Virus record (IMG/VR): IMGVR_UViG_3300030095_005604
Coordinates: 3,448-67,447 of that record
From: a virus
Taxonomy: Duplodnaviria; Caudoviricetes
Reading direction: 5' to 3' (one strand)
DNA: 64,000 nucleotides
Part shown: piece after piece, positions 5,451-41,386 of the stretch
How positions within the stretch are numbered: the stretch's first letter is position 1
Layout of the letters: each line of letters starts with the position of its first letter
Position numbers and translations under genes: made by a program
Notes under the pieces: generated by a model
Databases searched by the model: none
The model's input: only the letters and a program-made list of their open reading frames with translations
Told to the model about the DNA's origin: nothing

Positions 5451-6827
5451 ATGTCGAAGAAGAAGATTTTACTCTTGTCGGACGACTTGAGAATGCATTC
5501 CGGAATAGCAACACAATCAAAAGAATTTGTAGTAGGTACACTTGACAAATATGATTGGGTTCAATTAGGTGGGGCTGTAAAACATCCAGAACAAGGAAAA
5601 ATTGTAGATATGGCACCAGCCATTAAAAATGAATATGGGATAAAAAATCCTTATTTAAAAATATATCCTATTTCTGGATATGGTAACCCTGATATTTTAC
5701 GAGATGTTATACGGATAGAAAAACCAGATGCTATAATGCATTTTACAGACCCAAGATTTTGGATTTGGTTATATAATATGGAACACGAAATCAGACAGAA
5801 CATTCCTATTATGTATTACAATATTTGGGACGATATTCCAGACCCTTTATACAATACAAACTTTTACAGAAGTTCAGATATGTTGATGTCAATATCAAAA
5901 CAAACATATGGTATTAATAAAAGAATACTTTCTAAATTTGGATACGAAGATTGGCAAACATCTTATGTTCCTCACGGTATAAGTTCAAAGAGAGTATTCA
6001 AAGTACATCCAGATGACGAAAACTTTAAAGCTTTCGAAAAGAAATTTCATTTAGATAAATATAAATTTAAAGTATTGTATTTAAATCGTAATATCAGAAG
6101 AAAATCACCTGGTGATGTAGCACTAGCATATAAACATATGATGGACAAATTAACACCTGAAGAACGAAAAGATTGTGTATTTGTATGGCATGCAGCAGTT
6201 AGTGATGAAAACGGAACAGATATGAGAGCTGTGTGTGAAACTTTACTACCTGATTATCCAGTAATATTTACACAAGATATAAATGGTCATCATGGATTTA
6301 GTGATGAGCAGATGAATTACTTATACAATTCAGTTGATGTTTATATTAATATGGCTTCTAACGAAGGATTTGGGTTAGGAAGTTGTGAAGCACTTCACGC
6401 AGGAACACCAATTGTAGTTAATGTAACTGGTGGATTACAAGACCAATGTGGATTCAAAAACGAAAAAGGTGAATATTTAACTGGTGAAGATTATGTTAAA
6501 TTACAATCTAATCACAGAGGAACATATAAAGACCACGGTGAATGGGTTGTACCTGTATTTCCAAGTAACATATCATTATGTGGTTCGCCAATGACACCAT
6601 ACATTTTTGATGATAGATGTCAGTATGAAGATGCTGGAGATGCTCTTTGGTCTTGGTATCAAAGAGGACCTGAAGAGAGAGAAAGATGTGGTGAAGCTGG
6701 AAGACAATTTGTTTTAAATGAAGGTAGAATGACTGGTAAACATCTTTCAGAATCGTTTATTAAAAACATTGAGACTACACTTGAGAAATGGAAACCAAAA
6801 GAAAAATATACAATGGAGGCTGTGTAA
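5451..6827 (+). CDS. GT-B glycosyltransferase (GT4-like)
   Basis: SDDLRMHSGIA, NRNIRRK, ASNEGFGLGSCEALHAGTP. Confidence 0.9.
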   Translation: MSKKKILLLSDDLRMHSGIATQSKEFVVGTLDKYDWVQLGGAVKHPEQGKIVDMAPAIKNEYGIKNPYLKIYPISGYGNPDILRDVIRIEKPDAIMHFTDPRFWIWLYNMEHEIRQNIPIMYYNIWDDIPDPLYNTNFYRSSDMLMSISKQTYGINKRILSKFGYEDWQTSYVPHGISSKRVFKVHPDDENFKAFEKKFHLDKYKFKVLYLNRNIRRKSPGDVALAYKHMMDKLTPEERKDCVFVWHAAVSDENGTDMRAVCETLLPDYPVIFTQDINGHHGFSDEQMNYLYNSVDVYINMASNEGFGLGSCEALHAGTPIVVNVTGGLQDQCGFKNEKGEYLTGEDYVKLQSNHRGTYKDHGEWVVPVFPSNISLCGSPMTPYIFDDRCQYEDAGDALWSWYQRGPEERERCGEAGRQFVLNEGRMTGKHLSESFIKNIETTLEKWKPKEKYTMEAV

Positions 6828-8194
6828 TGAAAAAACTTATTTTAATGTGTGCGCCATTTTCATCACGAAGTGGTTATGGTAATCATGCTAGAGATATTTA
6901 TAGATGTTTATGGAAACTTGAAGAGTATGAGATTAAATGTTTAGATGTCCGTTGGGGAGATTGTCCAAGGAATGCTCTTGAAGCTCCAGGAGAGTTCAAT
7001 GATAGTTTAAAATCTACTTTTGTAGAACAAGGACCTAAAGGTATAAGTTTAGATAGACAACCTGATATTTACATGGACATTAGAATACCTAATGAATTTC
7101 AACAGATAGGAAAAGTAAACATCGGTATAACTGCAGGAGTTGAAACAAGTGCTGTCTCAGCTGCTTGGTTAGATGGATGTAACAAAATGGATTTAATTAT
7201 CACGGTATCTGAACATTCTAAAATGGGTTTTGTAGGTGCCAAGTATGATAAAGTTCAAAACTTACCTGACGGCAAACAACAAAAAGTTGGTGAGTTAAAA
7301 TTAGAAAAACCAATTGAAGTATTGTTTGAAGGATTAGAAATAGATACTTTCAAGCCATTAAAAAGTTCAGAATTGAAAACACCAATATCAAAAACTCTTG
7401 ATAGTATTGAAGAAAGTTTTTGTTACTTGATGGTAGGACAATGGTGTAATGGTGGTTTTGGAGAAGATAGAAAAGACATACCAAGAGCAATTAAAACATT
7501 TTATGAAACATTTGCTAACAAAACAGCACCACCAGCATTAGTTGTAAAAACCAGCGGTGCTACATTTTCAATATTGGATAGGGAAGAATGTAAAAAGAAA
7601 TTAAACGCTATAAAAAATCAATTTCCAGCAGATGTAAAATTACCAAATGTGTATTTTATACACGGTAGTTTAACTACAGAAGAAATGAATGAGATGTATA
7701 ATCATCATAAAATTAAATCATTTTATTTGACAACACATGGAGAAGGATTTGGAAGACCTCTATTAGAAGCTTCTTTCACAGGTCTACCTATAATTACTTC
7801 TAATTGGAGTGGTCACTTAGATTTTCTTGACGAAGAGCATTGTTTACTTGTATCAGGTAAATTAGAAAAAGTTCCTCGTTCTGTTGTGTGGAAAGATATT
7901 ATAGTAGAAGAATCTCAATGGTTTGTAGCTAGTACCAGTAGTGTAAGTTCTGCTTTAACTTTTATTTATAGTAATTATAATGAATGTAAACAAAGAGCTT
8001 TACAATTAATGGAAACAAATAGAGATAAATTTAATACTGAAAAAATGATTGAAAAGTTTAAAAGTATTTTAGACAAAGTATCAGTAGACATTCCAACACA
8101 GGTATCTTTAAATTTACCTAAATTAAAAAAGGTAAGTAAACCGAGCCAACCAAAACTACCTAAATTAAAGAAAGTAACAGGAGCATCAGTATGA
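6827..8194 (+). CDS. GT-B glycosyltransferase (GT4-like)
   Basis: SGYGNHAR, THGEGFGRPLLEASFTGLPII; start moved to ATG 6827 (SD GGAGG). Confidence 0.88.
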   Translation: MKKLILMCAPFSSRSGYGNHARDIYRCLWKLEEYEIKCLDVRWGDCPRNALEAPGEFNDSLKSTFVEQGPKGISLDRQPDIYMDIRIPNEFQQIGKVNIGITAGVETSAVSAAWLDGCNKMDLIITVSEHSKMGFVGAKYDKVQNLPDGKQQKVGELKLEKPIEVLFEGLEIDTFKPLKSSELKTPISKTLDSIEESFCYLMVGQWCNGGFGEDRKDIPRAIKTFYETFANKTAPPALVVKTSGATFSILDREECKKKLNAIKNQFPADVKLPNVYFIHGSLTTEEMNEMYNHHKIKSFYLTTHGEGFGRPLLEASFTGLPIITSNWSGHLDFLDEEHCLLVSGKLEKVPRSVVWKDIIVEESQWFVASTSSVSSALTFIYSNYNECKQRALQLMETNRDKFNTEKMIEKFKSILDKVSVDIPTQVSLNLPKLKKVSKPSQPKLPKLKKVTGASV

Positions 8195-8643
8195 GTATAG
8201 TTATAAAGTGTAGTTTATGTGGAGAGAAATCATTACATATAAACAAAATTGAAGGTACAACTTCTGATACGAGACAATGTATAAATTGTGGTTATGCTTC
8301 GAATACAAATCTAAAAGGTCTCAAAGAAGAAAATGAACAATTCAAAACTTTTTCAGAATTTATACAAAAGTATTCAAAAGAAAGTGATGGGCATATTTGG
8401 TTCCCATCTATGATTAACTTACCAATTGGTAGTTTGTATCCAATTGAAAAAGATGATACATTAAAATGGGCATATGTTAAAATGGTTGATATACCAGAAG
8501 AAGAACAAGAGAATTATCCTGATGAATTAAATCCAGGAAAATTTTTAACAAAGACACTTGATTATGACAATCAACAAATTTTTGATGATTATATCTTTGG
8601 TCTTGCTACAATGCGTGATGAGGTCAAATCAGTAAATGGCTAA
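8191..8643 (+). CDS. Hypothetical zinc-finger protein
   Basis: CSLCG...CINCG. Confidence 0.5.
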   Translation: MSIVIKCSLCGEKSLHINKIEGTTSDTRQCINCGYASNTNLKGLKEENEQFKTFSEFIQKYSKESDGHIWFPSMINLPIGSLYPIEKDDTLKWAYVKMVDIPEEEQENYPDELNPGKFLTKTLDYDNQQIFDDYIFGLATMRDEVKSVNG

Positions 8644-9142
8644 AAATCCAGAACAAAAGGGAAGACAGGTCCCTTCTAAAACTGAAAAAACAGAATCTAA
8701 AAAAAGTTTTAAAGGTAATGAAAGAAGTATTGGATGGAGTTTAAAACAAGCTAGTACTGGACAATTTATTCAATTTACTTATAATGGTAAACGAAGAAGA
8801 GTTTTAGTCTTGTCAGAAAAATACAGAACAAGTAAAAAAAATTCTGTATTAACTTGTGTTGACTTAACACTTCATGCTTTCGCCCCTAATAAACTAAATA
8901 AAATATTCGACATAGGTAGCTTTCCTAGATTAGTCAGAACAGCAATTACAGATACAGATGACTTTAGATTTTTTGAAATAAATCCATCAACAGATTTAGA
9001 ATCACTTGTTAGTAAAAACAAATTCTTTAAAAACAACTATAAAACATTTTTAAGAAAAAAAATAACAGGTGTAGTAAAAATGTGGAATCCTATATTTTCA
9101 CCTGCTATGATTACAAAATTAAATATACAGGATATAGTGTAA
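8636..9142 (+). CDS. Hypothetical basic protein
   Basis: ORF in operon. Confidence 0.5.
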   Translation: MAKNPEQKGRQVPSKTEKTESKKSFKGNERSIGWSLKQASTGQFIQFTYNGKRRRVLVLSEKYRTSKKNSVLTCVDLTLHAFAPNKLNKIFDIGSFPRLVRTAITDTDDFRFFEINPSTDLESLVSKNKFFKNNYKTFLRKKITGVVKMWNPIFSPAMITKLNIQDIV

Positions 9143-9768
9143 TGAAAATAAGTTATAGTATTATGACTCACAATGAAACAGATTCATTATCCAAGTTAAT
9201 AGAATTTTTAATGTATAATAAAGACTCAGAAGACGAGATAGTAATTCTTGATGATTATTCAGATAATGAAGAGACAAAAGAAATACTTGATATTACCTGT
9301 TCAATGTATAATAAAGATATAAAATTTGAACAAAGACATTTATTAAAAGATTACGCTGGACAAAAAAATTACTTGACGCGTATGTGTAAAGGTTCGTATA
9401 TTGTAAACATAGATGCTGATGAGATACCACATAAACAATTAATGTCAAATATAAAAACTATAATAGAATCAAATCCAACGATAGACTTATTTTGGGTGCC
9501 GAGAGTAAACACGGTTGATGGTATCACACAAGACCATATGCAACAATGGGGTTGGAATGTTAATGAACATGGTTGGATTAACTTTCCAGATTGGCAAGGC
9601 AGGATTTGGAGAAATAGACCAAACATTATGTGGAAGAATAAAGTACACGAATTATTAACTGGTTATAAAGAACATACTTATCTTCCTGCTGAGGAAGAGT
9701 TTTGTTTTTATCATCCTAAAGACATAGATAGACAAGAAAAACAAAATAAATTTTACGATACAATATGA
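9142..9768 (+). CDS. GT2-family glycosyltransferase
   Basis: ISYSIMTHNE, ILDDYS, IDADE, VHE motif; start ATG 9142. Confidence 0.88.
   Translation: MKISYSIMTHNETDSLSKLIEFLMYNKDSEDEIVILDDYSDNEETKEILDITCSMYNKDIKFEQRHLLKDYAGQKNYLTRMCKGSYIVNIDADEIPHKQLMSNIKTIIESNPTIDLFWVPRVNTVDGITQDHMQQWGWNVNEHGWINFPDWQGRIWRNRPNIMWKNKVHELLTGYKEHTYLPAEEEFCFYHPKDIDRQEKQNKFYDTI
9373..9402 (+). promoter_or_regulatory. Promoter embedded inside the GT2 coding sequence
   Basis: TTGACGCGTAT...TTCG-TATATT with 18-nt spacer; first 11 nt identical to intergenic promoters at 964 and 49199. Confidence 0.55.
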
Positions 9769-10415
9769 TTAAAAAAGGTTTAATAGTTTCGTGTCAAGCG
9801 GAAACAGGTAGTGCGTTCAATGATGTACATTCAATTCAATCCTTTGCTCTGGAAGCTGAAAGAGGTGGTGCAGTAGGATTACGATTGAGAGAGACAGAAA
9901 ATGTGCTTGGTGTTAGTAAAGTATGTAAATTACCCATTATTGGTTTGACGAAAACAAATTATGAAAATGGTGATGTTTGGATAACACCATCTTGGAATCA
10001 AGCTAAAGATTTAGTTAATGTTGGTGCTACATATGTAGCGATGGATGCCACTGGTAGATGTGGGTATTATGATATAGAATTAGCATCATCAGGTGGTTTG
10101 ATTAAAATTATTGGTGACATATCACACATAAATCAAGCTGAAGAAGCATTAAAAAGTGGTTGTACAATGTTAACTACAGCTTTAAGTGGTTACACCTCTG
10201 AGTGTGATGTTGATATGAGTAGACCGGACTTTGTTTTATTACATCAATTAAGAAAATACTATCCTGATGTACCAATAATGGCTGAAGGTAGATATTGGGA
10301 ATACGATGAAGTAGAAAGAGCTTTTGCTATGGGTGCACATAATGTTGTCGTAGGGACTGCTATAACGAGACCACACTTAATAACAAAAAGATTAATGGAG
10401 GCATATAATGAGTAA
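9765..10415 (+). CDS. nanE: N-acetylmannosamine-6-phosphate 2-epimerase
   Basis: GLIVSCQA, LPIIGLTK, ITP, MAEGR, VVGTAITRP. Confidence 0.9.
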   Translation: MIKKGLIVSCQAETGSAFNDVHSIQSFALEAERGGAVGLRLRETENVLGVSKVCKLPIIGLTKTNYENGDVWITPSWNQAKDLVNVGATYVAMDATGRCGYYDIELASSGGLIKIIGDISHINQAEEALKSGCTMLTTALSGYTSECDVDMSRPDFVLLHQLRKYYPDVPIMAEGRYWEYDEVERAFAMGAHNVVVGTAITRPHLITKRLMEAYNE

Positions 10416-11244
10416 TAAAGTAAATATAATTGCAGAAATAGGAATCAACCATCAAGGTAATTTTGAATTGATGAAGAAAATGATGTTAGCTGCTAAAAAA
10501 TGTGGAGTAGACTATGTAAAAAGTCAGAAAAGAGAACCTAGAGTATGTTTGACAGAAGAACAATATAATAGAGTATATGATAGTCCTAATAGTTTTGGTA
10601 AAACTTATGGTGAACACAAAGAAAACTTAGAGTTTTCAGTAGAACAATGGGAAGAATTACAAAAATATGCTGAGAAAATCAATGTAAAAATGTTTATGAG
10701 TGTATTTGATGAAGTCAGTGCTGATAAGATGAATGAGATGGGTATGGAGTTATTTAAAATAGGTTCAGCAGAAGTGACTAAATTGTCTTTATTAGAACAA
10801 GTTAAATCTTTTAATAAACCAATAATAATATCTTCAGGTATGAGTACTATTGAAGAGATTGATACAGCTATTGATGTGTTGAAAGGTTCAGATGTAACTT
10901 TAATGCAATGTACATCATCTTATCCATCAAAAGAGACAGAAGTACATCTAAATGTTTTAAAAACTTATCAGGATAGATATAACATACCAGTAGGGTTAAG
11001 TGGTCATTATGTAAATGGTAGTGGTGCTATAGAAGCAGCAGCTGTTGCATTAGGGGCTAAATGGATAGAAAGGCACTTCACATTAGACAGAACTATGAAA
11101 GGTACTGACCAATCAGCATCTTTAGAAAAAATAGGAATGCAAAATGTGGTTAAAAGTGTTCGTGTAGTAGAGAGAGCTTTAGGTGGATTTAATAAACAAG
11201 TATTAAAATCTGAAATACCAATCAGAGAAAAGTGCCGTGGATAA
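10408..11244 (+). CDS. neuB: Nonulosonic (sialic) acid synthase, NeuB family; lacks the C-terminal SAF/antifreeze domain
   Basis: IIAEIGINHQG, VKSQK, FKIGS, IISSGMST, QCTSSYP, GLSGH, IERHFTLD. Confidence 0.9.
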   Translation: MSNKVNIIAEIGINHQGNFELMKKMMLAAKKCGVDYVKSQKREPRVCLTEEQYNRVYDSPNSFGKTYGEHKENLEFSVEQWEELQKYAEKINVKMFMSVFDEVSADKMNEMGMELFKIGSAEVTKLSLLEQVKSFNKPIIISSGMSTIEEIDTAIDVLKGSDVTLMQCTSSYPSKETEVHLNVLKTYQDRYNIPVGLSGHYVNGSGAIEAAAVALGAKWIERHFTLDRTMKGTDQSASLEKIGMQNVVKSVRVVERALGGFNKQVLKSEIPIREKCRG

Positions 11245-11977
11245 ATTAAAAGTAGTTATATTAACAGGAAATCAACCAAGACATACATATTTTGTAAACA
11301 ATATGAATAAACATTTTGATGTTGTAGGTTTGATAACTGAACCTAAACACAAATATTTTGATACTCAACAAGAAGAAAGTGATATAGTAAGAAAACATTT
11401 TGTTAATTTAAAAGTAACTGAACAATTTTATTTTCAATCTCCATCATTAGAACTTGCTAATCATAAACAATTAAAATCCAAAGAAATAAACAATAATGAA
11501 AACATAGAGTGGGTTAAATCATTGAAACCAGACTATGTGTTACTTTATGGTACTGGTATATTAGATAGGTTATGGTTTGATGAATTTGATGACAGAATAA
11601 TAAATTTACATTTAGGAATGTCACCATATTACAGAGGAAGTGCAACCTTGTTTTGGCCTTTTTATAATGATGAATTAGATTATTTAGGTATAACAATTCA
11701 TATAGCAACCGAACAAGTTGATGCTGGTGATATTTTAAAGATAGTTACTCCTGACATAGAAGACGAAGACAATTACTATGACATAACAAATAAATTGATA
11801 CAAAAATCAATAAAAAAGTTTTCAAGTGTTGTTTATGATTATCATGCAGGTGATATAAAAAAGGTACCTCAAGATATTACTAAACAAAAATATTACTATA
11901 AGAAAAAAGATTTTACAGAAAAATGTCTAAAAAAAATATCAACTAAGATGTGGGGTGGTAATGCTATTAGTAGTTAA
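11237..11977 (+). CDS. Formyltransferase-family protein
   Basis: INLHLGMSPYYRG, TIH...VDAGDIL. Confidence 0.85.
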   Translation: MDKLKVVILTGNQPRHTYFVNNMNKHFDVVGLITEPKHKYFDTQQEESDIVRKHFVNLKVTEQFYFQSPSLELANHKQLKSKEINNNENIEWVKSLKPDYVLLYGTGILDRLWFDEFDDRIINLHLGMSPYYRGSATLFWPFYNDELDYLGITIHIATEQVDAGDILKIVTPDIEDEDNYYDITNKLIQKSIKKFSSVVYDYHAGDIKKVPQDITKQKYYYKKKDFTEKCLKKISTKMWGGNAISS

Positions 11978-33568: not shown

Positions 33569-33855
33569 TAATATATGTGGATATAGATGGTACAATTTGC
33601 CATACAACAAATGCAGACTATGAAAATTCAAAACCAAGACACGACCAAATAGATAAGATAAATAAATTATACGATGAAGGACACGAAATAGTTTATTGGA
33701 CAGCTCGTGGTGGGACTACTGGTATTGATTGGAAACTTTTTACAAAAATACAGATTAACAATTGGGGCTGTAAGTATACAAGAATTGAAGAACAAAAAAA
33801 ACCATCATATGATTTATTTATTGATGACTTGTCAAAAAGAATAGAGGAAATATAA
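33565..33855 (+). CDS. Small HAD-family phosphatase
   Basis: IYVDIDGTIC, WTARG, FIDD. Confidence 0.8.
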   Translation: MIIYVDIDGTICHTTNADYENSKPRHDQIDKINKLYDEGHEIVYWTARGGTTGIDWKLFTKIQINNWGCKYTRIEEQKKPSYDLFIDDLSKRIEEI

Positions 33856-34617: not shown

Positions 34618-35537
34618 AGATAATAGTTTTTCATCAACCGTTTCCAATGGGTAATTATAAGGTAAATGAAATTATAGCAAATCATTTATCTAAAAAACAC
34701 GAAGTTTATTTACTTCAACAACTAAATGGTGCTACACCAGATATGGATTATGTAACTCAGATTAAAGAATTAAACCCTGATTTAATTTATTTTGAAATGT
34801 TAGATAAAGAAACTTTTGATATAGTAGAAATGTTAGATTGTGAAAAGATTTTATTACAAGCATCTAATGGTATTTTAACTAATTATGAAGATATATTTGA
34901 TTACCATGGTAAATGGTATACAAAAGTTTTAACTAATTCAAAATATATGTATGATAAATTTAATAAAAAAGGTATAACAACAGAGTATTTTAAATATCTT
35001 CCCTCTGTTTTAAATGATTCAGATTTAGTTTTTGATGAAAAATACAATCACGATTCTGTATTCTTAGGTATGGGTTTTCACAGAATGAGTTCCGAAAGTT
35101 ACAGAAAAGATAAAGAAATATTTTTTAATAATTTTGACGGTATTGATTTTAAAATATATGGTAATGGTTGGCCTAATTTTCCACATTGTGGGGGAGTTTT
35201 ACCGGCTGACGATATAGGAAAATTGTACTACTCTGCAAAATCAGCCTTTGGATTGATTGGAGAAACACAAAGAACACATGGACAAATTAATAACAGGTAT
35301 ACAGAAATGGCATACGCTGAGGTACCGATAATAACACAAAATTATGAAACAATAGATTGGTTTGGGGCTGAAAATTATTTAAATTTTGTTGAATCAAGAG
35401 AAGAGGCACAACAAACAATTAACAACATATTAAATAATCCAGAAGTATATAAATCAAAATCACAAGAATTAAAAAAGTTTATTGTGAAAAAACATAACGA
35501 GTTTATAGACAAATTATCACACTTGTTAGGAGATTAG
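34614..35537 (+). CDS. GT-B glycosyltransferase-like (CgeB-type)
   Basis: KIYGNGW, GQINNRYTE. Confidence 0.6.
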   Translation: MKIIVFHQPFPMGNYKVNEIIANHLSKKHEVYLLQQLNGATPDMDYVTQIKELNPDLIYFEMLDKETFDIVEMLDCEKILLQASNGILTNYEDIFDYHGKWYTKVLTNSKYMYDKFNKKGITTEYFKYLPSVLNDSDLVFDEKYNHDSVFLGMGFHRMSSESYRKDKEIFFNNFDGIDFKIYGNGWPNFPHCGGVLPADDIGKLYYSAKSAFGLIGETQRTHGQINNRYTEMAYAEVPIITQNYETIDWFGAENYLNFVESREEAQQTINNILNNPEVYKSKSQELKKFIVKKHNEFIDKLSHLLGD

Positions 35538-36500
35538 ATGAAAATAGCATGGTTTACAGAAGGTAGGTTTGAGGGTAAAGTTCCAAGAAATCATCCAAAT
35601 ATGAGAAATGATATGGCTTGGATGCACACTTTAGATGCACATCATTACCCGATTCTTTCTTTACCTAACATACAAGAAACATATGATATAGGTATAATAA
35701 CTATTCCGAAAGCAAATATCGACCATTATATGCAGATTGATATAGTTAATGAACTTAAAAGAGTCTGTAAAAAGGTCGGGACAATGCAAGAAGGACCACA
35801 TTGGTACTTCCAAGATTTTAAAATGGAAGAACAAATATGGTTCTACAATATGTTAGTTGAATTTGATTTTATATGGTGTCATAATGAAATAGATAAAAAA
35901 TATTATGAAGGAATAACCAACAAAACTTGTTATGTGAATCCTACACTTATGTTAGAAGACCAAATAGATTCACATATTGTTAATCCAGATGCAAGAAATG
36001 GTGTAATGATTGGTGGAAACTTTTGTAGATGGTATGGTGGATTTGATTCTTATATTGTAGCTCAAGAATTTGGAGACGATATATTTGCACCATCAATGGG
36101 TAGAAAAATAGATAGAGAAGATGAGATGGATATTTCTCATTTACCATATATGACTTGGGTTGATTGGATAAATAATCTATCACGATTTAAATATGGAGTT
36201 CATTTAATGCCTACTTGGGCTGCTGGTACATTCACATTGAATTGTGCTTATCACGGTATACCTTGTATTGGTTACAAAGGATTAGACACACAAGAACAAT
36301 TACATCCATCATTGAGTGTTGATTATGGTGATTTAAATGCAGCTAAAATATTAGCTCAAAGATTAAAATCAAATACAGATTTTTATAATAAGTGTAGTAA
36401 AGAATGTAAAGATTTATATGAAAAAAGTAAATTTAAAGAACAAAGTTATATTCAGATAATAAATAAAATATTAACGGAGATTAATACGAATGGGTGTTAA
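35538..36500 (+). CDS. GT-B glycosyltransferase-like
   Basis: AAGTFTLNCAYHGIPCIG; context. Confidence 0.55.
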   Translation: MKIAWFTEGRFEGKVPRNHPNMRNDMAWMHTLDAHHYPILSLPNIQETYDIGIITIPKANIDHYMQIDIVNELKRVCKKVGTMQEGPHWYFQDFKMEEQIWFYNMLVEFDFIWCHNEIDKKYYEGITNKTCYVNPTLMLEDQIDSHIVNPDARNGVMIGGNFCRWYGGFDSYIVAQEFGDDIFAPSMGRKIDREDEMDISHLPYMTWVDWINNLSRFKYGVHLMPTWAAGTFTLNCAYHGIPCIGYKGLDTQEQLHPSLSVDYGDLNAAKILAQRLKSNTDFYNKCSKECKDLYEKSKFKEQSYIQIINKILTEINTNGC

Positions 36501-37467
36501 AGAACAAATAGAATTTTATCAGAGTAGAAATTTTCATTGGGGAGCTAGTCCTGTCCATGGATTATCAGATAAAGAAGTTTGGATTCAGCGTAAAAACAAT
36601 CCAAAAATAAAACTATTTAATGCTATACAAATTCAAACTATAGAATTTTGTAATCTTAAATGTGATTTCTGTCCTAATCATTACATAGTTTGGGATAGAC
36701 AAGAGAAAAAGAAAAAAAAGATACCTTACAACAGAATGTCTTTTGAAAATTATGAAAAACTTTTAATTAACTTAGCAAATTTGGGTTACGAGGGTAGAAT
36801 ATCACCATACTTGATGAATGAACCGTTTATGGACAATGATAGACTGGTTAGGTTTATTGAAATGACAAGACAACATTTACCAAAAGCATATATTCAAATG
36901 AACTCGAATGGTACTAACACTACCAAAGAATTTGTAGGTGACTTGATTGATGCTGGGTTGAATCGTATCCAGTTTGATGATTATTTTAATGATAAATATG
37001 CTATGAAATTATATGAGGCCATTGAACCTTTTAAAGATAATAAAACTTGTCACATCATACTTGCTTCTAATTATAATGTGAGACAAATTCCAAAAAAAGA
37101 ATCAGGTGATGGTAATGCCACAATGGAACCACATTGGGGACCTAATGGTTATTGGAATAGAGGTGGGTTAGTTAATGTTAATCCAGACATACCTGTACCT
37201 CAAAAGGATTGTCATTATCCAAATTCACAGATGTTTATAAAATGGGATGGTAGTGCATTATTATGCTGTTGTGATTGGGAATATAAAGTAGTACATGGTA
37301 ATGTATTTGAAACAAGTGTTGAAGAGGTTTGGACTAATGGTTCATATCAACATTATAGAGATACTTTAAAGCAAGGAAGAAGAGATTTATTACGAATGTG
37401 TAGAAAGTGTAACAAAGGATGTTACCCGAATGAGGAAGAAAGGTTAAAACAGCTAAAAAATGTATAG
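36490..37467 (+). CDS. Radical SAM/SPASM-domain protein
   Basis: CNLKCDFC, NEP, C-terminal C...LCCCD...GNV...CRKC. Confidence 0.88.
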   Translation: MGVKEQIEFYQSRNFHWGASPVHGLSDKEVWIQRKNNPKIKLFNAIQIQTIEFCNLKCDFCPNHYIVWDRQEKKKKKIPYNRMSFENYEKLLINLANLGYEGRISPYLMNEPFMDNDRLVRFIEMTRQHLPKAYIQMNSNGTNTTKEFVGDLIDAGLNRIQFDDYFNDKYAMKLYEAIEPFKDNKTCHIILASNYNVRQIPKKESGDGNATMEPHWGPNGYWNRGGLVNVNPDIPVPQKDCHYPNSQMFIKWDGSALLCCCDWEYKVVHGNVFETSVEEVWTNGSYQHYRDTLKQGRRDLLRMCRKCNKGCYPNEEERLKQLKNV

Positions 37468-37519
37468 TTTACAGAAAACTATTATATTTATATATATACA
37501 AAATAAAAAGAGGTTATAA

Positions 37520-38722
37520 ATGAAACCAATTAGTTTTATACAACCAAGTAGAAACAATTTAAAATACTTGAAGTGGTCTTACAATTCTATCAGAAAGAAT
37601 CTTGGATATGTGCATGAAATATGTATGGCTGATGATTTTTCAGATGATGGGACTTGGGAATGGATGCAAGAGATTCAGAAAAAAGACCCAAATGTAAAAA
37701 TCCACAGAAACGAAGGCCCTACAAGATTAGGACACACAATTCTATACGATACATTGATTAATGATTATGCTACAAATGATATTGTTATGATATATCACGC
37801 TGATATGTATGCTTTACCAGGACTTGATGTAGAGATAAATAAACATATCAAGAAAGGTGTTGTGGTTAGTGGAACAAGAATAGAACCACCATTACATCCA
37901 GAAGGGCCTGAAAAGATATTACGAGATTATGGAATTGAACCTGAAGAGTTTGATGAACAACAATTATTACGAGAATATGAATCACTTAAAAAAGATACTA
38001 CGACAAATGGAATCTTTGCTCCTTGGGCTATAATGAAAGAGGATTTTCAAAGTATTGGAGGGCACGATTCATTGTATGCTCCACAATCAAAAGAAGATTC
38101 AGATATATTTAACAGATTTGTGTTGAATGGATATGAATTAGTACAAACTTGGGAGGGTTTTGTATATCATATGACTTGTAGAGGTTCGAGATTTGCAGAT
38201 GGTGCTAAAAGAAATCCAGATGGACAGGTGTTTATGAAAGGTAGAGAAACAGATGAGTGGTTAAAACAGAATCACAAATCTACTCGTAACTTTATTCGTA
38301 AGTGGGGACATTTTGTAAAACACGACGCTTTACTGAAACCTATTATACCACCAAAGTATGATATTGGATTTGTAATAACTGGTTGTAGAGATGATATATT
38401 GTATGAATTAGAACCTTGGTGTTCAAACATATATGTGGATAGTCCTATTGCCAATAGATATATTGAATCGGAACAATCAGAGACAGATTTTGATTTAAAA
38501 GACAGAGTTAGAACTTTATTTGACAAAGGAAGTAATGATATAACTCTTGAATTTGACGCTAGTGATTTCAATCAAGATAGTTTTAACATCATTACAAGTT
38601 TATCAGAAATACTTGCTAACGATGAAGAACTTGAAGAAGGTGAATTTGAATTAGGTATTTTTAACATAAATGTAAACAAAATAAAAACATATGAAGAGGA
38701 GTTAATTAAATGCGAGTCTTAG
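37520..38722 (+). CDS. GT2-family glycosyltransferase with C-terminal extension
   Basis: ADDFSDDGT, YHADMY, EDSD. Confidence 0.85.
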   Translation: MKPISFIQPSRNNLKYLKWSYNSIRKNLGYVHEICMADDFSDDGTWEWMQEIQKKDPNVKIHRNEGPTRLGHTILYDTLINDYATNDIVMIYHADMYALPGLDVEINKHIKKGVVVSGTRIEPPLHPEGPEKILRDYGIEPEEFDEQQLLREYESLKKDTTTNGIFAPWAIMKEDFQSIGGHDSLYAPQSKEDSDIFNRFVLNGYELVQTWEGFVYHMTCRGSRFADGAKRNPDGQVFMKGRETDEWLKQNHKSTRNFIRKWGHFVKHDALLKPIIPPKYDIGFVITGCRDDILYELEPWCSNIYVDSPIANRYIESEQSETDFDLKDRVRTLFDKGSNDITLEFDASDFNQDSFNIITSLSEILANDEELEEGEFELGIFNINVNKIKTYEEELIKCES

Positions 38723-39609
38723 TAACAGGTGGGGCAGGATTTATCGGTTCACACATAGCTAACAGATTTTTATCAAAAGGATGGGGAGTTGTAGTGCTTG
38801 ATAGTTTAGAGGAAACATCAGATATAACCAGATTAGATGAAGGTATTGATGTTATAATTAAAGAAAGAATGGAAAGTGTAGAAAATTTACCAATAGTTGA
38901 TTTAGTTATAAACTCAGCTGCAGAAACGCATGTTGACTACTCTTTTGATAGACCTAAAGATTTTATAGATGCAAATATATTAGGGTTACACAATATAGCA
39001 AAACATTGTTCAGAGTATAATATACCTTTAATTCACTTGAGTACTGATGAAGTTATTGGAACTGGTGAAGATTTATATGAGGACTCAATGTTGAAACCTA
39101 CTAATCCATATGCATTTACAAAGTGTGCTGGAGAAAACTTATTACATGCTTATGGATATTGTTATAATTTAAATTGGAAGATAGTTAGATTAAATAACAC
39201 ATATGGTAAAAAACAATTTCCAGACAAACTGATACCTAAATTTATAAAACTACTAAACGAGGGTAAAAAACTAACTATACACGGAGAAGGATTGGTAACA
39301 AGAAACTTTTTGCATGTAGAAGATTTTGTAGACGCTGTAGAAGTTGTGCATGAAACTGGTAAAAACAAAAATATCTACAATGTTTCAACAGATGAAGAAT
39401 ACACAATCATCAAAGTTACAGAAATGATTTGTGATACTATGAATTTCAAGATGAATGAAGTTATTAAATATGTAGAAGACAGACCTTTTAATGACCCTTG
39501 TTATCATTCTAAGAGTAATAAATTGAGAGAGATAGGTTGGAATCCTAAAAGAACCTTAAAAGAATCATTACCAGAATTAGTAAAATATTATTCAGAAGGA
39601 GTTATGTAA
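38710..39609 (+). CDS. rmlB: dTDP-glucose 4,6-dehydratase
   Basis: GGAGFIG, AAETHVDYS, STDEV, NPYAFTK, NTYG..QFPDKLIP. Confidence 0.85.
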   Translation: MRVLVTGGAGFIGSHIANRFLSKGWGVVVLDSLEETSDITRLDEGIDVIIKERMESVENLPIVDLVINSAAETHVDYSFDRPKDFIDANILGLHNIAKHCSEYNIPLIHLSTDEVIGTGEDLYEDSMLKPTNPYAFTKCAGENLLHAYGYCYNLNWKIVRLNNTYGKKQFPDKLIPKFIKLLNEGKKLTIHGEGLVTRNFLHVEDFVDAVEVVHETGKNKNIYNVSTDEEYTIIKVTEMICDTMNFKMNEVIKYVEDRPFNDPCYHSKSNKLREIGWNPKRTLKESLPELVKYYSEGVM

Positions 39610-40520
39610 TGGAGAAGTTAAAATGTTTAGTAACAGGTGGAGCTGGTTTCATTGGAAGTAATTTAGTAGACAAATTAATTGAAGAAGGACATCCAGTAGT
39701 AATTGTTGATGATATGTCAACTGGTAAAGATGAAAACATAAACCCTAAAGCTGAAATTTGGTGTGTTGATATTGCTGATGTCGATGAAGATTGGGAAGAA
39801 ATTTTTGATGGAGTGAAAGTAGTATTTCACACAGCGGCTAAAGCAAGAGTTCAACCCTCAATAAAGAATCCTGTAGAGTTTGATAGGACTAATGTTGGTG
39901 GTACGATAAATATGTTAGATTGTTCCAGAAAATATGGTGTAGAAAGATTTGTATATAGTTCTTCATCATCAATTTATGGTAATGTTGAGATTGTTCCTAC
40001 GAAAGAGGAAACAGAACCGAATCCTTTAAGTCCATATGGTTTACAAAAATTAATAGGAGAACAATATTGTAGATTATTTTCAGATTTATATGGCCTCAGT
40101 ACTACTTGTTTACGATATTTTAATGTCTATGGTGAAAGACAACCTTTAGAAGGTGCTTATTGTCTTGTGATGGGAATATTTGCTAGACAAAAAATGAATG
40201 GAGAGCCACTAACTATTAGAGGTAATGGTCACCAAAGAAGAGACTTTACATATGTTGGTGATGTAGTGGATGCTAATCTAAGAGCAGCTTTCAATGACTT
40301 AGTTTTAAAAGGAGAACCATTTAATATTGGTAATGGTGACAATCGTTCAGTAAAACATATAGCTAAATTGATAGGTGGAAAAACTAAAAATGTTGACCCT
40401 GTAACAGAACCAAAAGAGACTCTGGCAGATAATAATAAAGCTAGTTTTTTCTTGGGTTGGGAACCTAAAGGTGATTTAGAAAAATGGATAAAAATTTATA
40501 AGGAGAAACTTGGGATATGA
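39609..40520 (+). CDS. NDP-sugar 4-epimerase (GalE/WbpP-like SDR)
   Basis: GGAGFIGS, SSSSIYG, SPYGLQK, RYFNVYG, QRRDFTYV. Confidence 0.88.
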   Translation: MEKLKCLVTGGAGFIGSNLVDKLIEEGHPVVIVDDMSTGKDENINPKAEIWCVDIADVDEDWEEIFDGVKVVFHTAAKARVQPSIKNPVEFDRTNVGGTINMLDCSRKYGVERFVYSSSSSIYGNVEIVPTKEETEPNPLSPYGLQKLIGEQYCRLFSDLYGLSTTCLRYFNVYGERQPLEGAYCLVMGIFARQKMNGEPLTIRGNGHQRRDFTYVGDVVDANLRAAFNDLVLKGEPFNIGNGDNRSVKHIAKLIGGKTKNVDPVTEPKETLADNNKASFFLGWEPKGDLEKWIKIYKEKLGI

Positions 40521-41386
40521 AATATAAAATAGGTATAATAGGAAATGGATTTGTAGGTTCAGCAGTAGCATCTGGATTTTCTCCAAAGTGTGGTTGTGAC
40601 ACAGAGGTAAAGATATACGATAAAGATGACACTAAATCAACACACACATTGACAGAGGTAGTTAATGATTCAGATTATATATTTTTATCAGTTCCGACAC
40701 CATCTAATCCTGATGGTTCAATAAGTTTAGATATATTATTTAATGTGTTTAAAGAAATAGATGAGGTCATTGATTACGAAGTTGACAAACAACCAATTAT
40801 AATGATAAGGTCTACCGTAACTCCAGGAACAACAGCAAAAATACAAGGTGAGTATCCAAGAATGTATATTGTATTTAATCCTGAATTTTTAACAGAACGC
40901 TCAGCTAAATTCGATTTTATCAATCAATCAAGATTTATTGTTGGTGGTAGTTGGGGTAGTACAACAGCAGTTGAGCACCTATATAAGTGGAGATTTGGAG
41001 AATCCATACCAGTTATTAAAACTAATTTTCAGACTGCTGAAATGATTAAATATATGAATAATTGTTTCTTTGCTACAAAAGTATCATTCTTAAATGAAAT
41101 GTATCAAGTAGCAGAAAAATGTGGAGTTAATTGGGAAGAGTGTGTTGAAGGATTTGTCAGAGATGGAAGAGTAGGTCATTCACATCTATCAGTTCCTGGA
41201 CCTGATGGTAAGTTTGGATTCGGAGGTAGTTGTTTCCCTAAAGACATACAGGCTATGATTAATTTTGCTGAGTCACTTGATGTTAATCCTACGACAATGA
41301 AAGGTGCTTGGGAAAAGAATTTAGATGTTAGACCTGAAGAAGATTGGAAAGAGTTAAAAGGAAGAGCTGTTGTTGAAGAAAGTTAA
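40517..41386 (+). CDS. ugd: UDP-glucose/GDP-mannose 6-dehydrogenase family, lacking the C-terminal domain
   Basis: GNGFVG, SVPTP, RSTVTPG, NPEFL, FGGSCFPKD; only 289 aa. Confidence 0.8.
   Translation: MKYKIGIIGNGFVGSAVASGFSPKCGCDTEVKIYDKDDTKSTHTLTEVVNDSDYIFLSVPTPSNPDGSISLDILFNVFKEIDEVIDYEVDKQPIIMIRSTVTPGTTAKIQGEYPRMYIVFNPEFLTERSAKFDFINQSRFIVGGSWGSTTAVEHLYKWRFGESIPVIKTNFQTAEMIKYMNNCFFATKVSFLNEMYQVAEKCGVNWEECVEGFVRDGRVGHSHLSVPGPDGKFGFGGSCFPKDIQAMINFAESLDVNPTTMKGAWEKNLDVRPEEDWKELKGRAVVEES

What the first reader, a model, noticed from the sequence alone, without database searches (positions are those of the whole stretch)
5451..41386. 36-kb phage glycan factory with no membrane or export machinery
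Seen: about 45 contiguous genes next to a T4-like replisome, including a dozen or more glycosyltransferase-like ORFs, several NDP-sugar pathways, two methyltransferases and two radical SAM enzymes. None has obvious transmembrane segments, and I see no Wzx, Wzy, ABC transporter or undecaprenyl-phosphate initiating transferase. Established: serotype-converting phages normally use membrane Gtr proteins, whereas giant viruses glycosylate their own virions with soluble pathways. Inference: the acceptor is cytoplasmic (virion protein or DNA) and the product is a complex, heavily tailored glycan. The cluster is unusually large for a phage.
Basis: partly seen in the sequence, partly recalled or inferred. 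Interest (0 to 1): 0.8.

Follow-up and report, generated by a model that had tools for sequence, protein, structure and literature searches.

The report
Giant soluble glycan island of marine phage
A fragment of an uncultured T4-like marine phage carries a 36-kb block of about 43 genes, all of them soluble enzymes that make and join unusual sugars. It is the largest example seen here of a conserved but highly variable sugar locus shared by related water phages, and it most likely coats the phage's own proteins.

Summary
Window 5451-41386 holds 43 same-strand, mostly overlapping ORFs. Six are solid glycosyltransferases (GTs) and five more are probable. There are at least five sugar-nucleotide routes, one solid methyltransferase (a second is weak) and two radical-SAM enzymes. 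No ORF has a convincing membrane segment. No initiating transferase, flippase, polymerase or ABC permease was found here or in four complete relatives.

The contig is viral. It has a T4-type replisome and shares gene order with Microcystis phage Mel-JY01, Flavobacterium phage immuto and IMG/VR relatives that carry a Gp23 capsid gene.

New here: the island is the expanded form of a conserved locus. The core is a GT4 pair, a GT2, a 70-aa signature protein and a closing GT2. The cargo varies, giving islands of 6, 11, 18, 25, 25 and 36 kb.

Its three transcription units start with a motif lacking a -35 box, ATAyTTATA. In immuto this motif precedes terminase, sheath, tube and baseplate genes.

Published nucleoside analysis of immuto DNA reports no glycosylated base.

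Best reading (about 0.5): late-expressed soluble enzymes glycosylate phage (virion) proteins. The main rival (about 0.27) is remodelling of host envelope glycans through host export.

The scan's first readers noted similar but smaller islands on at least eight other genomes. The kind is known; the size, architecture and regulation are new details.

The parts
5194..5207 (+). Promoter-like motif P1 (ATAyTTATATATA, no -35 box) ahead of transcription unit 1
   Evidence: 33 nt before ORF 5227. The same motif precedes late structural genes and the island start in immuto.
5227..5430 (+). Small conserved ORF (67 aa) that precedes GT-A in relatives
   Evidence: 55-66% identical in 13 IMG/VR loci. No family found.
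5451..6827 (+). GT-A: core GT4-type, GT-B-fold glycosyltransferase with a conserved E-x7-E motif
   Evidence: Pfam PF00534. 20 or more homologues at the same position. Model pLDDT 87, best PDB match chlorovirus B736L.
6827..8194 (+). GT-B: second core GT4-type enzyme. The true start overlaps the GT-A stop (TAATG). The disordered C-terminal tail carries two LPKLKK motifs (about 8114-8191).
8191..8643 (+). Conserved hypothetical protein with CxxC...CxxC (zinc-ribbon-like)
   Evidence: 26-39% identical at the same position in relatives and in immuto.
8636..9142 (+). Hypothetical protein with no relatives found
9082..9768 (+). Core GT2 glycosyltransferase
   Evidence: PF00535, 52.8 bits. 36-56% identical in immuto, Mel-JY01, G001-G004. 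Present in 60 of 80 loci that carry the signature gene.
9765..10415 (+). NanE-like ManNAc-6-P 2-epimerase
   Evidence: PF04131, E 1e-37.
10408..11244 (+). NeuB/PseI-type nonulosonate synthase
   Evidence: PF03102, E 2e-71.
11237..11977 (+). Formyltransferase
   Evidence: PF00551.
11955..12878 (+). CE4 polysaccharide-deacetylase-family enzyme with no signal peptide
   Evidence: PF01522. Hydropathy scan.
12875..13795 (+). PseB/FnlA-like UDP-GlcNAc 4,6-dehydratase
   Evidence: PF02719, E 3e-62; TIGR03589 below its cut-off.
13786..14448 (+). CMP-nonulosonate (PseF/NeuA-like) cytidylyltransferase
   Evidence: PF02348 and TIGR03584.
14441..15469 (+). Probable virus-type GT-B glycosyltransferase
   Evidence: Atlas clusters dominated by Uroviricota, some members with PF13524. 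Two copies at 42% identity in G004.
15466..16179 (+). Unknown protein
   Evidence: No match.
16205..16218 (+). Promoter-like motif P2 in the 60-nt gap, ahead of transcription unit 2
   Evidence: 35 nt before 16240.
16240..17067 (+). Probable GT-A-fold glycosyltransferase, paralogue of 18622
   Evidence: Weak PF00535 hit. 30% identical to 18622, E 4e-45.
17048..17548 (+). RmlC-type 3,5-epimerase
   Evidence: PF00908, E 7e-40.
17545..18420 (+). SDR reductase/epimerase (Fcl/RmlD-like)
   Evidence: PF01370.
18413..18625 (+). 70-aa signature protein of this island family, function unknown
   Evidence: 69-72% identical in immuto and G004. 1222 unnamed clusters in the protein collection. Lies inside a GT island in most of 80 viral loci (60 of 80 carry the core GT2 within 6 kb). 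No Pfam or PDB match.
18622..19563 (+). Probable GT-A-fold glycosyltransferase, paralogue of 16240
19517..20494 (+). PanB-like hydroxymethyltransferase
   Evidence: TIGR00222, 280 bits, above its cut-off. Travels with ThDP and B12 radical-SAM genes elsewhere.
20494..22329 (+). ThDP-dependent carboligase (acetolactate-synthase-like)
   Evidence: PF02775, PF02776 and PF00205; below the equivalog cut-offs.
22329..23858 (+). B12-binding radical SAM enzyme
   Evidence: PF04055 and PF02310.
23864..25027 (+). DegT/RfbH-like PLP enzyme (aminotransferase or 3-dehydrase)
   Evidence: PF01041, E 3e-73. RfbH is the best NCBIfam match.
25020..26607 (+). Two unknown ORFs (25020-25901, 25876-26607)
   Evidence: Only a weak aminotransferase hit, E 0.005.
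26604..27569 (+). NDP-hexose 4,6-dehydratase
   Evidence: PF16363, E 2e-72.
27562..29111 (+). Pair of GT8-like glycosyltransferase paralogues (27562-28368, 28365-29111)
   Evidence: PF01501, 23.6 bits, for the second. 33% identical to each other. 42% and 54% identical to genes in G004.
29111..30157 (+). Unknown protein shared with G004 (38%). A weak copy of the motif lies at 29090.
30160..31125 (+). GDP-mannose 4,6-dehydratase (Gmd)
   Evidence: TIGR01472, 423.5 bits against a cut-off of 415. 78% identical in G004.
31125..32425 (+). Possible methyltransferase (31125, weak) and SAM methyltransferase (31817)
   Evidence: PF13578, E 0.02. PF08241.
32422..32832 (+). Unknown protein (136 aa)
   Evidence: homologues in 8 of 80 island loci.
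32795..34617 (+). Heptose-nucleotide module: HldE-domain-I-like kinase, HAD phosphatase, cupin, HldE-domain-II-like adenylyltransferase
   Evidence: PF00294, TIGR02198, TIGR01689, PF07883, TIGR02199.
34614..35537 (+). GT-B glycosyltransferase (Glyco_trans_1_2)
   Evidence: PF13524, 38.4 bits.
35538..36500 (+). Probable virus-type GT1-like glycosyltransferase, semi-core
   Evidence: 46% identical in G002 and G003. Present in 24 of 80 island loci. Atlas clusters named GT1.
36490..37467 (+). Radical SAM / SPASM enzyme
   Evidence: PF04055 and PF13186.
37484..37497 (+). Promoter-like motif P3 in the 52-nt gap, ahead of transcription unit 3
   Evidence: 36 nt before 37520. The equivalent motif precedes gp170/gp169 in immuto.
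37520..38722 (+). Closing core GT2 (WcaA-like)
   Evidence: PF00535. 77% identical in G004, 48% to immuto gp169, 43% in G003, 33% in G002.
38710..40520 (+). dTDP-glucose-4,6-dehydratase-like SDR (38710) and GalE/TviC-like epimerase (39609)
40517..41386 (+). Short (289 aa) UDP-glucose/NDP-sugar dehydrogenase at the right end of the island
   Evidence: PF00984, PF03721, TIGR03026. 65% identical and the same length in G004.

Best explanation
This is a genuine phage-encoded, wholly cytoplasmic glycan factory. It is the largest version seen here of a conserved locus in a clade of T4-like aquatic myoviruses (relatives of Flavobacterium phage immuto and Microcystis phage Mel-JY01).

Proposed mechanism:
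- Conserved core genes do the priming and finishing steps on an acceptor that is itself conserved in the phages. These are the translationally coupled GT4 pair GT-A/GT-B, a GT2, a 70-aa signature protein and a closing GT2.
- A swappable middle supplies activated sugars (nonulosonic acid, branched or dideoxy 6-deoxyhexose, GDP-6-deoxyhexose, heptose, uronic acid) and extra GTs and tailoring enzymes that set the glycan's structure.
- The island is read as three transcription units from a late-type promoter that lacks a -35 box, together with the virion genes.
- The product is attached directly to phage proteins, most likely virion surface proteins, without a lipid carrier or export.

Shown: gene content, solubility, absence of membrane machinery, viral origin, the conserved-core and variable-cargo architecture, and the shared promoter motif. 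Inferred: late timing, protein acceptor, virion location and the chemistry of the glycan.
For: - Gene content and solubility.
- Viral origin: gp43-type polymerase, clamp loader and Phage_clamp_A. Gene order matches Mel-JY01 and immuto. Complete relatives G002 and G003 carry Gp23.
- No PGT, Wzx, Wzy/ligase or ABC-2 permease in the contig or in four complete relatives. No immuto ORF looks like a flippase or polymerase; those with three or more hydrophobic segments are a 112-aa EmrE-like protein, the holin, a 381-aa coiled-coil protein and the tape measure.
- The core GTs are conserved at the same position in phages of a cyanobacterium, a flavobacterium and (at 27% identity) Rhodothermus. This fits a phage-borne acceptor better than host-specific surface lipids.
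- The middle of the island is mosaic, with sizes from 6 to 36 kb. That is the pattern expected of an exposed, diversifying surface structure.
- ATAyTTATA lies 31-36 nt before the first gene of each of the three units. In immuto, 14 of 18 plus-strand copies lie 10-45 nt before annotated starts. These include terminase, sheath, tube, hub, tail spike, the baseplate operon and both island units, and none is an annotated replication gene.
- Both core GTs are closest in sequence profile and in fold to chlorovirus GT B736L.
- Precedent: mycobacteriophage capsid and tail-tube glycosylation, as summarised in PMC12619734.
Against: - No virion protein of this phage is available and there is no direct chemistry.
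- Peripheral GTs without membrane segments also build LPS cores and lipid-linked repeat units, so solubility does not exclude a membrane acceptor.
- The basic LPKLKK tails of GT-B could be membrane-binding rather than docking motifs.
- Heptose and nonulosonic or Kdo-like sugars are typical envelope sugars.
- The 'late' label for the motif rests on which genes it precedes in one cultured relative, not on expression data.
- The motif is AT-rich in AT-rich genomes: 18 observed against a mean of 7.8 in shuffles (maximum 16), and the reversed-pattern control in G003 was 10 against 14.
- Only 8 of 20 relatives have the exact motif within 500 nt upstream of GT-A. L007 and L011, whose upstream DNA I read, carry an AT-rich variant in the same place.
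- A strong sigma-70-like site at 5332-5359 could add early transcription, although it is not conserved.
Confidence: 0.5

Rival explanations
1. Host-envelope remodelling. The soluble phage enzymes extend host lipid-linked intermediates (Und-PP-sugars or lipid A-core) at the inner face of the membrane. Host flippases, polymerases, ligases and Lpt then export the altered glycan. This changes the infected cell's surface, for example to block superinfection or to avoid trapping of progeny.
For: - This is the standing hypothesis for the 'LPS gene' clusters of large T4-like cyanophages (PMC1079782; PMC12801897).
- The ADP-heptose-type, nonulosonate and uronic-acid routes are typical of LPS and capsule.
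- LPS-core GTs are peripheral proteins without membrane segments (general knowledge).
- The Lys-rich tails of GT-B could bind anionic membranes.
- A lipoprotein-like ORF follows the island at 41472.
Against: - No initiating, flipping, polymerising or ligating gene was found in five genomes.
- The priming GT pair is conserved across phages whose hosts belong to different phyla and have very different envelopes.
- The promoter motif is shared with virion genes rather than early genes.
- The exact sequence conservation of LPKLKK looks more like a protein-docking motif than a membrane patch.
- A lytic phage has little time to benefit from slow surface turnover (inference).
Confidence: 0.27
2. DNA hypermodification. 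The GTs attach glycans to modified bases of the phage genome to block restriction, as in T4 and other phages that glycosylate hydroxymethyl-pyrimidines.
For: - The island sits next to the replisome and nuclease genes.
- Phage DNA GTs are soluble GT-B enzymes. A 'DNA alpha-glucosyltransferase' appears far down the list of structural neighbours (rank 46).
- Lys-rich SPKK-like tails could bind DNA (inference).
Against: - immuto carries the same core, and its digested DNA gave only dA, dC, dT and fdPreQ1 by LC-UV-MS (PMC10516641).
- No thymidylate-synthase-family hydroxymethylase is present in the window, in G002 or in Mel-JY01, although they have the core GTs.
- Forty genes and five sugar routes far exceed any DNA glycan I know of.
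- The promoter class is shared with structural genes.
Confidence: 0.03
3. Some other cytoplasmic product: a free oligosaccharide or polysaccharide, a glycosylated small molecule, or glycosylation of host cytoplasmic proteins as part of takeover.
For: - The PanB-like, ThDP and B12 radical-SAM trio recurs with aminotransferases in unrelated MAG contigs. I cannot exclude that it belongs to small-molecule chemistry (inference).
- Several ORFs have no assignable function.
Against: - Nine to eleven GTs and a CMP-nonulosonate route point to a polymer or a large glycoconjugate.
- The conserved core with variable cargo fits a surface structure.
- No polyketide, NRPS or other scaffold genes are present.
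Confidence: 0.12
4. The contig is cellular (a bacterial polysaccharide locus or a prophage remnant) and was wrongly called viral.
For: CheckV completeness is only 5% and no capsid or terminase gene lies on the 67-kb contig.
Against: - T4-type polymerase, clamp, clamp loader and Phage_clamp_A.
- Gene-by-gene synteny with two cultured phages and with complete viral contigs that carry Gp23.
- Uniform 30% G+C and one coding strand.
- No cellular housekeeping genes.
Confidence: 0.02

Closest known systems
[quoted passage not shown]
   Same: - Same position, after the PD-(D/E)XK nuclease.
- Same core: small ORF, GT-A, GT-B, hypothetical protein, GT2 ... closing GT2. immuto also has the 70-aa signature protein at 69% identity.
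- Same promoter motif at the island start in immuto.
- Same LPKLKK tail on GT-B.
   Different: Their islands are 11 kb and 6 kb with one or two sugar routes. This one is 36 kb with five routes, two radical-SAM enzymes and about twice as many GTs. In the papers I found, neither island has been analysed.
'LPS gene' clusters of large T4-like cyanophages (P-SSM2, S-SCSM1, S-SCSM2R)
   Same: T4-like marine myoviruses with clusters of epimerases, dehydratases and many GTs, and no known acceptor (PMC1079782, PMC12801897).
   Different: - They hold 22-24 genes, split into two clusters in P-SSM2, against 43 contiguous genes here.
- The core GT-A has no tblastn match (E up to 0.001) in any cyanomyovirus of the phage collection (7 records only), so this is a separate lineage of island.
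- The polymerase is only about 32% identical to cyanomyovirus gp43.
Mycobacteriophage virion glycosylation (Freeman et al. 2023, as cited in PMC12619734)
   Same: Phage-encoded soluble GTs glycosylate capsid and tail-tube proteins in the cytoplasm, without lipid carriers.
   Different: Those systems have a few GTs and rely on host sugar nucleotides (my recollection; the paper was not held). No homology was tested, and the acceptor here is unknown.
Autonomous glycosylation of giant viruses (chlorovirus capsid glycans, mimivirus fibril glycans)
   Same: Virus-encoded sugar-nucleotide routes plus soluble GTs acting on virion proteins. Both core GTs are closest to chlorovirus NY-2A GT B736L (PDB 3oy2) by profile (E 8.5e-16) and by fold.
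   Different: This is a bacterial virus. Identity to B736L is only 14-18%. B736L's own acceptor is, to my knowledge, unproven. The locus architecture is unrelated.
Bacterial O-antigen and capsule loci
   Same: Conserved flanks with a mosaic, highly variable middle made of sugar-nucleotide genes and GTs. The sugar repertoire is similar.
   Different: No initiating phosphoglycosyl transferase, Wzx, Wzy/ligase, chain-length regulator or ABC transporter. The locus is carried by a lytic-type phage.

Membership tests
Conserved glycan locus of immuto/Mel-JY01-like T4-type myoviruses (defined here) | Lies downstream of the replisome, PD-(D/E)XK nuclease and SLOG-like gene | tested here: met
Conserved glycan locus of immuto/Mel-JY01-like T4-type myoviruses (defined here) | Adjacent GT-A/GT-B pair followed by a GT2 at the left end, and a WcaA-like GT2 near the right end | tested here: met
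   37-77% identity to the counterparts in immuto, Mel-JY01 and G001-G004.
Conserved glycan locus of immuto/Mel-JY01-like T4-type myoviruses (defined here) | 70-aa signature protein inside the island | tested here: met
   Window 18413-18625. 69-72% identical in immuto and G004. In 60 of 80 viral loci it lies within 6 kb of the core GT2.
Conserved glycan locus of immuto/Mel-JY01-like T4-type myoviruses (defined here) | LPKLKK motif on the GT-B C-terminal tail | tested here: met
   Two copies here. A recognisable copy in 11 of the 13 aligned relatives and in immuto gp180; degenerate in L028 and L029.
Wzx/Wzy-dependent O-antigen or capsule pathway | Initiating phosphoglycosyl transferase (WbaP or WecA type) | tested here: not met
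   PF02397 and PF00953 are absent from the contig and four complete relatives; controls positive.
Wzx/Wzy-dependent O-antigen or capsule pathway | Wzx flippase and Wzy polymerase or ligase (multi-pass membrane proteins) | tested here: not met
   PF01943 and PF04932 absent. No window ORF has three or more hydrophobic segments.
ABC-transporter-dependent polysaccharide pathway | ABC-2 permease with an ATPase | tested here: not met
   PF01061 absent. No ABC_tran hit above cut-off in the scanned ORFs.
Serotype-converting phage Gtr system | Membrane proteins GtrA, GtrB and GtrC | tested here: not met
   No multi-pass ORF. The GT2 ORFs have no membrane segment. The GtrA family itself was not searched by name.
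Phage DNA glycosylation (T4 alpha/beta-GT type) | A hydroxymethyl-pyrimidine (or other modified base) pathway that supplies the acceptor | tested here: not met
   No PF00303 in the scanned window ORFs, in G002 or in Mel-JY01. The rest of this phage's genome is unknown.
Phage DNA glycosylation (T4 alpha/beta-GT type) | Glycosylated nucleosides in virion DNA | not testable with these tools
   By proxy only: immuto DNA showed dA, dC, dT and fdPreQ1 and no other peak (PMC10516641).
Phage or giant-virus virion glycosylation | Virus-encoded soluble GTs, with or without virus-encoded sugar-nucleotide routes | tested here: met
Phage or giant-virus virion glycosylation | Expressed together with virion genes | tested here: inconclusive
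   The promoter-like motif is shared with structural genes in immuto. There are no expression data.
Phage or giant-virus virion glycosylation | Glycan covalently bound to capsid, tail or fibre proteins | not testable with these tools
   Needs virions. The structural genes of this phage are not on the contig.
T4-like cyanophage 'LPS gene' clusters (P-SSM2 type) | Homologous core genes shared with P-SSM2, S-SCSM1 or S-SCSM2R | tested here: not met
   GT-A matches only 7 phage records, none a cyanomyovirus of that group. Only GT-A and NeuB were searched.

The most novel reading that the evidence does not exclude
The island is a phage 'serotype locus'. A complex heteroglycan (nonulosonic acid, branched dideoxyhexose, heptose, uronic acid) is assembled without any lipid carrier, directly on virion proteins. 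A conserved priming GT pair is recruited through its LPKLKK tails, and a 70-aa signature protein (found in over a thousand metagenomic sequence clusters) acts as adaptor or primer. Such variable glycan coats would then be a common and overlooked feature of aquatic T4-like phages.
Probability: 0.35. Interest if true: 0.8.

Novelty: new variant of a known kind. Interest (0 to 1): 0.62.

Why it matters
Large sugar-gene clusters in marine T4-like phages have been reported since 2005, and their acceptor has never been shown. This report adds four things.
- It defines a widespread, conserved-core and variable-cargo locus.
- It names two cultured phages (immuto and Mel-JY01) in which the acceptor question can be answered at the bench.
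- It gives regulatory evidence that links the locus to virion genes, and published chemistry that argues against DNA as the target.
- It points out two unexplained conserved elements: a 70-aa protein and a docking-like peptide.

If virions are indeed coated with variable, nonulosonate-containing glycans, that could bear on phage-host recognition, phage decay and stickiness in sea water, and how much carbon a phage particle holds. A phage that spends roughly a sixth of a genome of about 200 kb (the size is inferred from relatives) on sugars is also a source of new carbohydrate enzymes.

Tried and rejected
- Megablast of 24.5 kb of the island against 50,697 phage records: no match.
- PHROGs on ten unassigned ORFs: nothing useful.
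- PDB sequence searches of 14441, 35538, 29111 and the 70-aa protein profile: nothing significant.
- Pfam at E up to 5 on the remaining unknown ORFs: only noise.
- The T4 late promoter TATAAATA is not enriched (17 against 16.6 expected).
- The generic sigma-70 and terminator scan of 4400-24000 is not above shuffles.
- I looked for the motif directly upstream of gp23 in G002 and G003. There gp23 follows the preceding gene with no promoter, so the check was uninformative.
- Host inference from the PanB-like gene is ambiguous. The best matches are contigs in a Marinimicrobia SAG (81%), a Prochlorococcus SAG (73%) and various MAGs, and these may themselves be phage DNA.
- The 'moraphage' paper (four core GT groups) describes phages that lack much replication machinery. 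I could not link them to this clade.
- immuto gp185 (381 aa, four hydrophobic segments, near its island) is a coiled-coil protein with no homologue in this contig, not a flippase.
Gene neighbourhoods of the 70-aa protein were taken from IMG/VR loci instead.
- The Freeman 2023 paper was not held.
- Both structure-prediction slots went to the core GTs, so the 70-aa protein was not folded.

Full report
WHAT IS THERE

The window is bases 3448-67447 of a single 67,447-bp viral contig without terminal repeats. It has about 30% G+C throughout and is almost entirely coded on one strand.

From 5451 to 41386 there are 43 ORFs. Counted to 42202 there are 45, and 38 of the 44 junctions overlap or abut. 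Only three gaps exceed 50 nt. Pfam and NCBIfam assign most of them.

- Glycosyltransferases. Solid: 5451 and 6788/6827 (GT4), 9082 and 37520 (GT2), 34614 (Glyco_trans_1_2) and 28365 (GT8-like, borderline). Probable: 27562 (paralogue of 28365), 16240 and 18622 (paralogues of each other with weak GT2 hits), and 14441 and 35538 (virus-dominated GT-B-like clusters in the ESM Atlas).
- Nonulosonic acid route, 9765-14448: NanE, NeuB, formyltransferase, CE4 deacetylase, PseB-like dehydratase, CMP-transferase.
- 6-deoxy or dideoxy, possibly branched, hexose route, 17048-27569: RmlC, SDRs, RfbH-like PLP enzyme, ThDP carboligase, PanB-like enzyme, B12 radical SAM, 4,6-dehydratase.
- Gmd at 30160, which passes its equivalog cut-off.
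- A split HldE-type heptose kinase and adenylyltransferase with a HAD phosphatase and a cupin, 32795-34617.
- A dehydratase, an epimerase and a short sugar dehydrogenase, 38710-41386.
- One clear SAM methyltransferase (31817), one weak candidate (31125) and a radical SAM/SPASM enzyme (36490).

No sugar-1-phosphate nucleotidyltransferase of the RmlA/ManC type was detected. The hexose routes therefore presumably start from host NDP-sugars (inference).

NO MEMBRANE MACHINERY

- A 19-residue Kyte-Doolittle scan finds one marginal segment (1.72, inside an SDR) in the island. No ORF anywhere in the window has three or more segments.
- No island protein has a hydrophobic N-terminus.
- Family searches of the whole contig and of four complete relatives (G002 at 210 kb, G003 at 266 kb, immuto at 160 kb, Mel-JY01 at 190 kb) find no Bac_transf, Glycos_transf_4, Polysacc_synt (Wzx), Wzy_C or ABC2_membrane. 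The same searches hit 10-14 of 14 control genomes.
- In immuto, the ORFs with three or more hydrophobic segments are a 112-aa EmrE-like protein, the holin, a coiled-coil protein and the tape measure.

IT IS A PHAGE

- Upstream lie a gp43-type family-B polymerase, a probable sliding clamp (position only, no family hit), the gp44-type and Phage_clamp_A clamp-loader subunits, a PD-(D/E)XK nuclease and a SLOG/DprA-like protein.
- The nearest cultured polymerase is that of Microcystis phage Mel-JY01 (46.5%). Classical cyanomyoviruses reach only about 32%.
- IMG/VR holds 108 relatives. The two classed as complete that I searched encode a T4 Gp23 capsid protein.
- This contig has no capsid or terminase gene because it is a fragment (CheckV completeness 5%).

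THE ISLAND IS ONE MEMBER OF A CONSERVED, VARIABLE LOCUS

[quoted passage not shown] It consists of a small ORF, GT-A, GT-B, a zinc-ribbon-like protein and a GT2. GT-A also has a distant homologue in Rhodothermus phage RM378 (27%, position not examined).

The right end recurs in immuto (48%), G004 (77%), G003 and G002. It is a WcaA-like GT2 followed by SDRs, the dehydrogenase and an HNH-like gene.

Between the ends the cargo differs. G004 (polymerase 59% identical) shares the GT8 pair, ORF 29111, Gmd and a 14441-like GT, but lacks the nonulosonate, PanB/ThDP and heptose modules. Island sizes are about 6 kb (Mel-JY01), 11 kb (immuto), 18 kb (G003), 25 kb (G002, G004) and 36 kb here.

First readers of this scan noted similar islands of 9-20 kb on at least eight other genomes that share GT-A-like sequence. 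The kind is recurrent, and this is the largest example I saw.

TWO CONSERVED ODDITIES

1. The 70-aa ORF at 18413-18625 is the best-conserved gene of the island. It is 69% identical in immuto and 72% in G004, against 41-60% for the core GTs GT-A and GT-B. It has 1222 unnamed clusters in the protein collection. In 80 viral loci it usually lies inside such an island: 60 have the core GT2, 45 have GT-B and 39 have a DegT enzyme within 6 kb. It matches no Pfam family and no solved structure.

2. GT-B ends in a disordered tail with one or two copies of (L/I)xLPKLKK. The same peptide opens GT-A in seven relatives. No other protein in the window has it; in immuto, gp180 has it twice and one other ORF gives a single loose match. 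Its exact conservation suggests docking to a conserved partner. A membrane-binding role cannot be excluded.

GT-A and GT-B are translationally coupled (TAATG, with a GGAGG upstream). Relatives carry an in-frame stop before the GT-B methionine, so the 6788 start is wrong.

REGULATION

The three intergenic gaps of the island each hold TATAyTTATATATA 31-36 nt before the next start codon (5194, 16205, 37484). A further full copy is at 58557 and a weak one at 29090.

In immuto the core motif ATAyTTATA occurs 18 times on the coding strand and 3 times on the other. Shuffles give a mean of 7.8 and a maximum of 16. Fourteen of the 18 lie 10-45 nt before annotated starts:
- terminase large subunit, tail sheath, tail tube, baseplate hub, a tail spike, the operon that contains the baseplate genes, and three more genes in the structural modules;
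- the island start (gp182/GT-A) and the island's last unit (gp170/gp169);
- none before an annotated replication gene.

G002 and G003 also have the stringent motif upstream of their island starts, within about 0.5 kb in G002 and about 0.9 kb in G003.

I read this as the clade's late promoter, analogous to T4's late promoters, which also lack a -35 box. That puts the island in the virion regulon.

Caveats:
- There are no expression data.
- The motif is AT-rich in AT-rich DNA.
- Only 8 of 20 relatives have the exact motif upstream of GT-A; L007 and L011 have a variant in the same place.
- An 11/12 sigma-70-like site lies at 5332-5359, but it is inside coding sequence and is not conserved.

WHICH ACCEPTOR?

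DNA is unlikely. LC-UV-MS of digested immuto DNA showed dA, dC, dT and one replacement of dG (fdPreQ1), with no other peak (PMC10516641). G002 and Mel-JY01 have the core GTs but no thymidylate-synthase-family enzyme that could make a hydroxymethyl base.

Three indirect arguments favour phage protein over host envelope lipid:
- The priming GTs are conserved in phages of hosts from different phyla.
- The promoter motif is shared with virion genes.
- No initiation, flipping or ligation function is found in whole genomes of the clade.

Both core GTs resemble chlorovirus GT B736L most closely (profile E 8.5e-16; Foldseek E 3e-15 and 7e-16). This fits the giant-virus analogy but proves nothing about the acceptor.

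The envelope hypothesis is the standard one for cyanophage 'LPS genes' (PMC1079782, PMC12801897) and remains a serious rival. Peripheral GTs need no membrane segment, and the sugars made here are classic envelope sugars.

My estimates are: virion or phage protein 0.5, host envelope 0.27, other cytoplasmic product 0.12, DNA 0.03, cellular contig 0.02.

COMPARISON AND NOVELTY

- Sugar islands in T4-like marine phages are known: 24 genes in P-SSM2 and 22 in S-SCSM2R. [quoted passage not shown]
- Phage virion glycosylation is known in mycobacteriophages.
- Autonomous glycosylation is known in giant viruses.

This locus is a separate lineage, because GT-A has no match in those cyanophages. It is nearly twice as large in gene number. 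Its architecture (conserved core, mosaic cargo, signature protein, docking-like tails, late-type promoters) has not been described in the papers I could find. I class it as a new variant of a known kind.

LIMITS

The acceptor, the glycan structure, the timing of expression and the host are all inferred. 

Noticed in passing
window 18413-18625: A 70-aa protein with no known family is the most conserved gene of the island. It is abundant in aquatic metagenomes (1222 clusters) and usually lies inside phage GT islands.
   Followed up: partly
window 8114-8191 (GT-B tail); N-termini of GT-A in L011, L019, L024, L026, L034, L039, L043: A conserved basic peptide, (L/I)xLPKLKK, sits on the disordered C-terminal tail of GT-B and, in some relatives, at the N-terminus of GT-A. 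It looks like a docking motif. The partner is unknown.
   Followed up: partly
window 41472-41969: The ORF just after the island has an internal Met followed by a lipoprotein-like signal that ends in a Cys, then acidic residues. It is the only exported-looking protein near the island, and no relatives were found among the fetched loci.
   Followed up: no
L001:19-720 and L001:713-1912 (contig bases upstream of the window): The very left end of the contig, before the DNA polymerase, has a weak GT1-like ORF (E 1e-4) and an unassigned 399-aa ORF. More sugar genes may lie beyond the contig end.
   Followed up: no
window 40517-41386: The UDP-glucose/NDP-sugar dehydrogenase is only 289 aa and lacks the usual C-terminal domain. 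The same short form is kept at 65% identity in G004, so it is probably functional or works with a partner.
   Followed up: no
L181 (Oligoflexia MAG contig), L177-L180: The PanB-like gene travels with the ThDP enzyme (65%) and the B12 radical-SAM enzyme (41%) on a 49% G+C MAG contig. It also occurs at 72-81% identity on low-GC contigs binned with Marinimicrobia, Prochlorococcus and Pseudomonadota. The trio looks like a mobile sugar-tailoring module.
   Followed up: partly
window 42647-43144: An HNH-like gene marks the right flank of the island here, in G004 and in G003, and in 11 of 80 loci that carry the signature gene.
   Followed up: no
L007, L009, L013 at the GT-A/GT-B junction: Relatives have an in-frame stop just upstream of the GT-B methionine. 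This shows that the long 6788 start in the window is an ORF-calling artefact and that 6827 (TAATG overlap) is the real start.
   Followed up: yes
immuto NC_055915 versus window 1-963: immuto shares the island core and T4-like structural genes but uses a family-A DNA polymerase, whereas this phage and Mel-JY01 use a family-B gp43-type enzyme. This appears to be an instance of the polymerase swapping described in PMC11348598.
   Followed up: no
window 58557-58570: A fifth copy of the late-type motif lies 31 nt before ORF 58588 (196 aa, no family), far outside the island.
   Followed up: no
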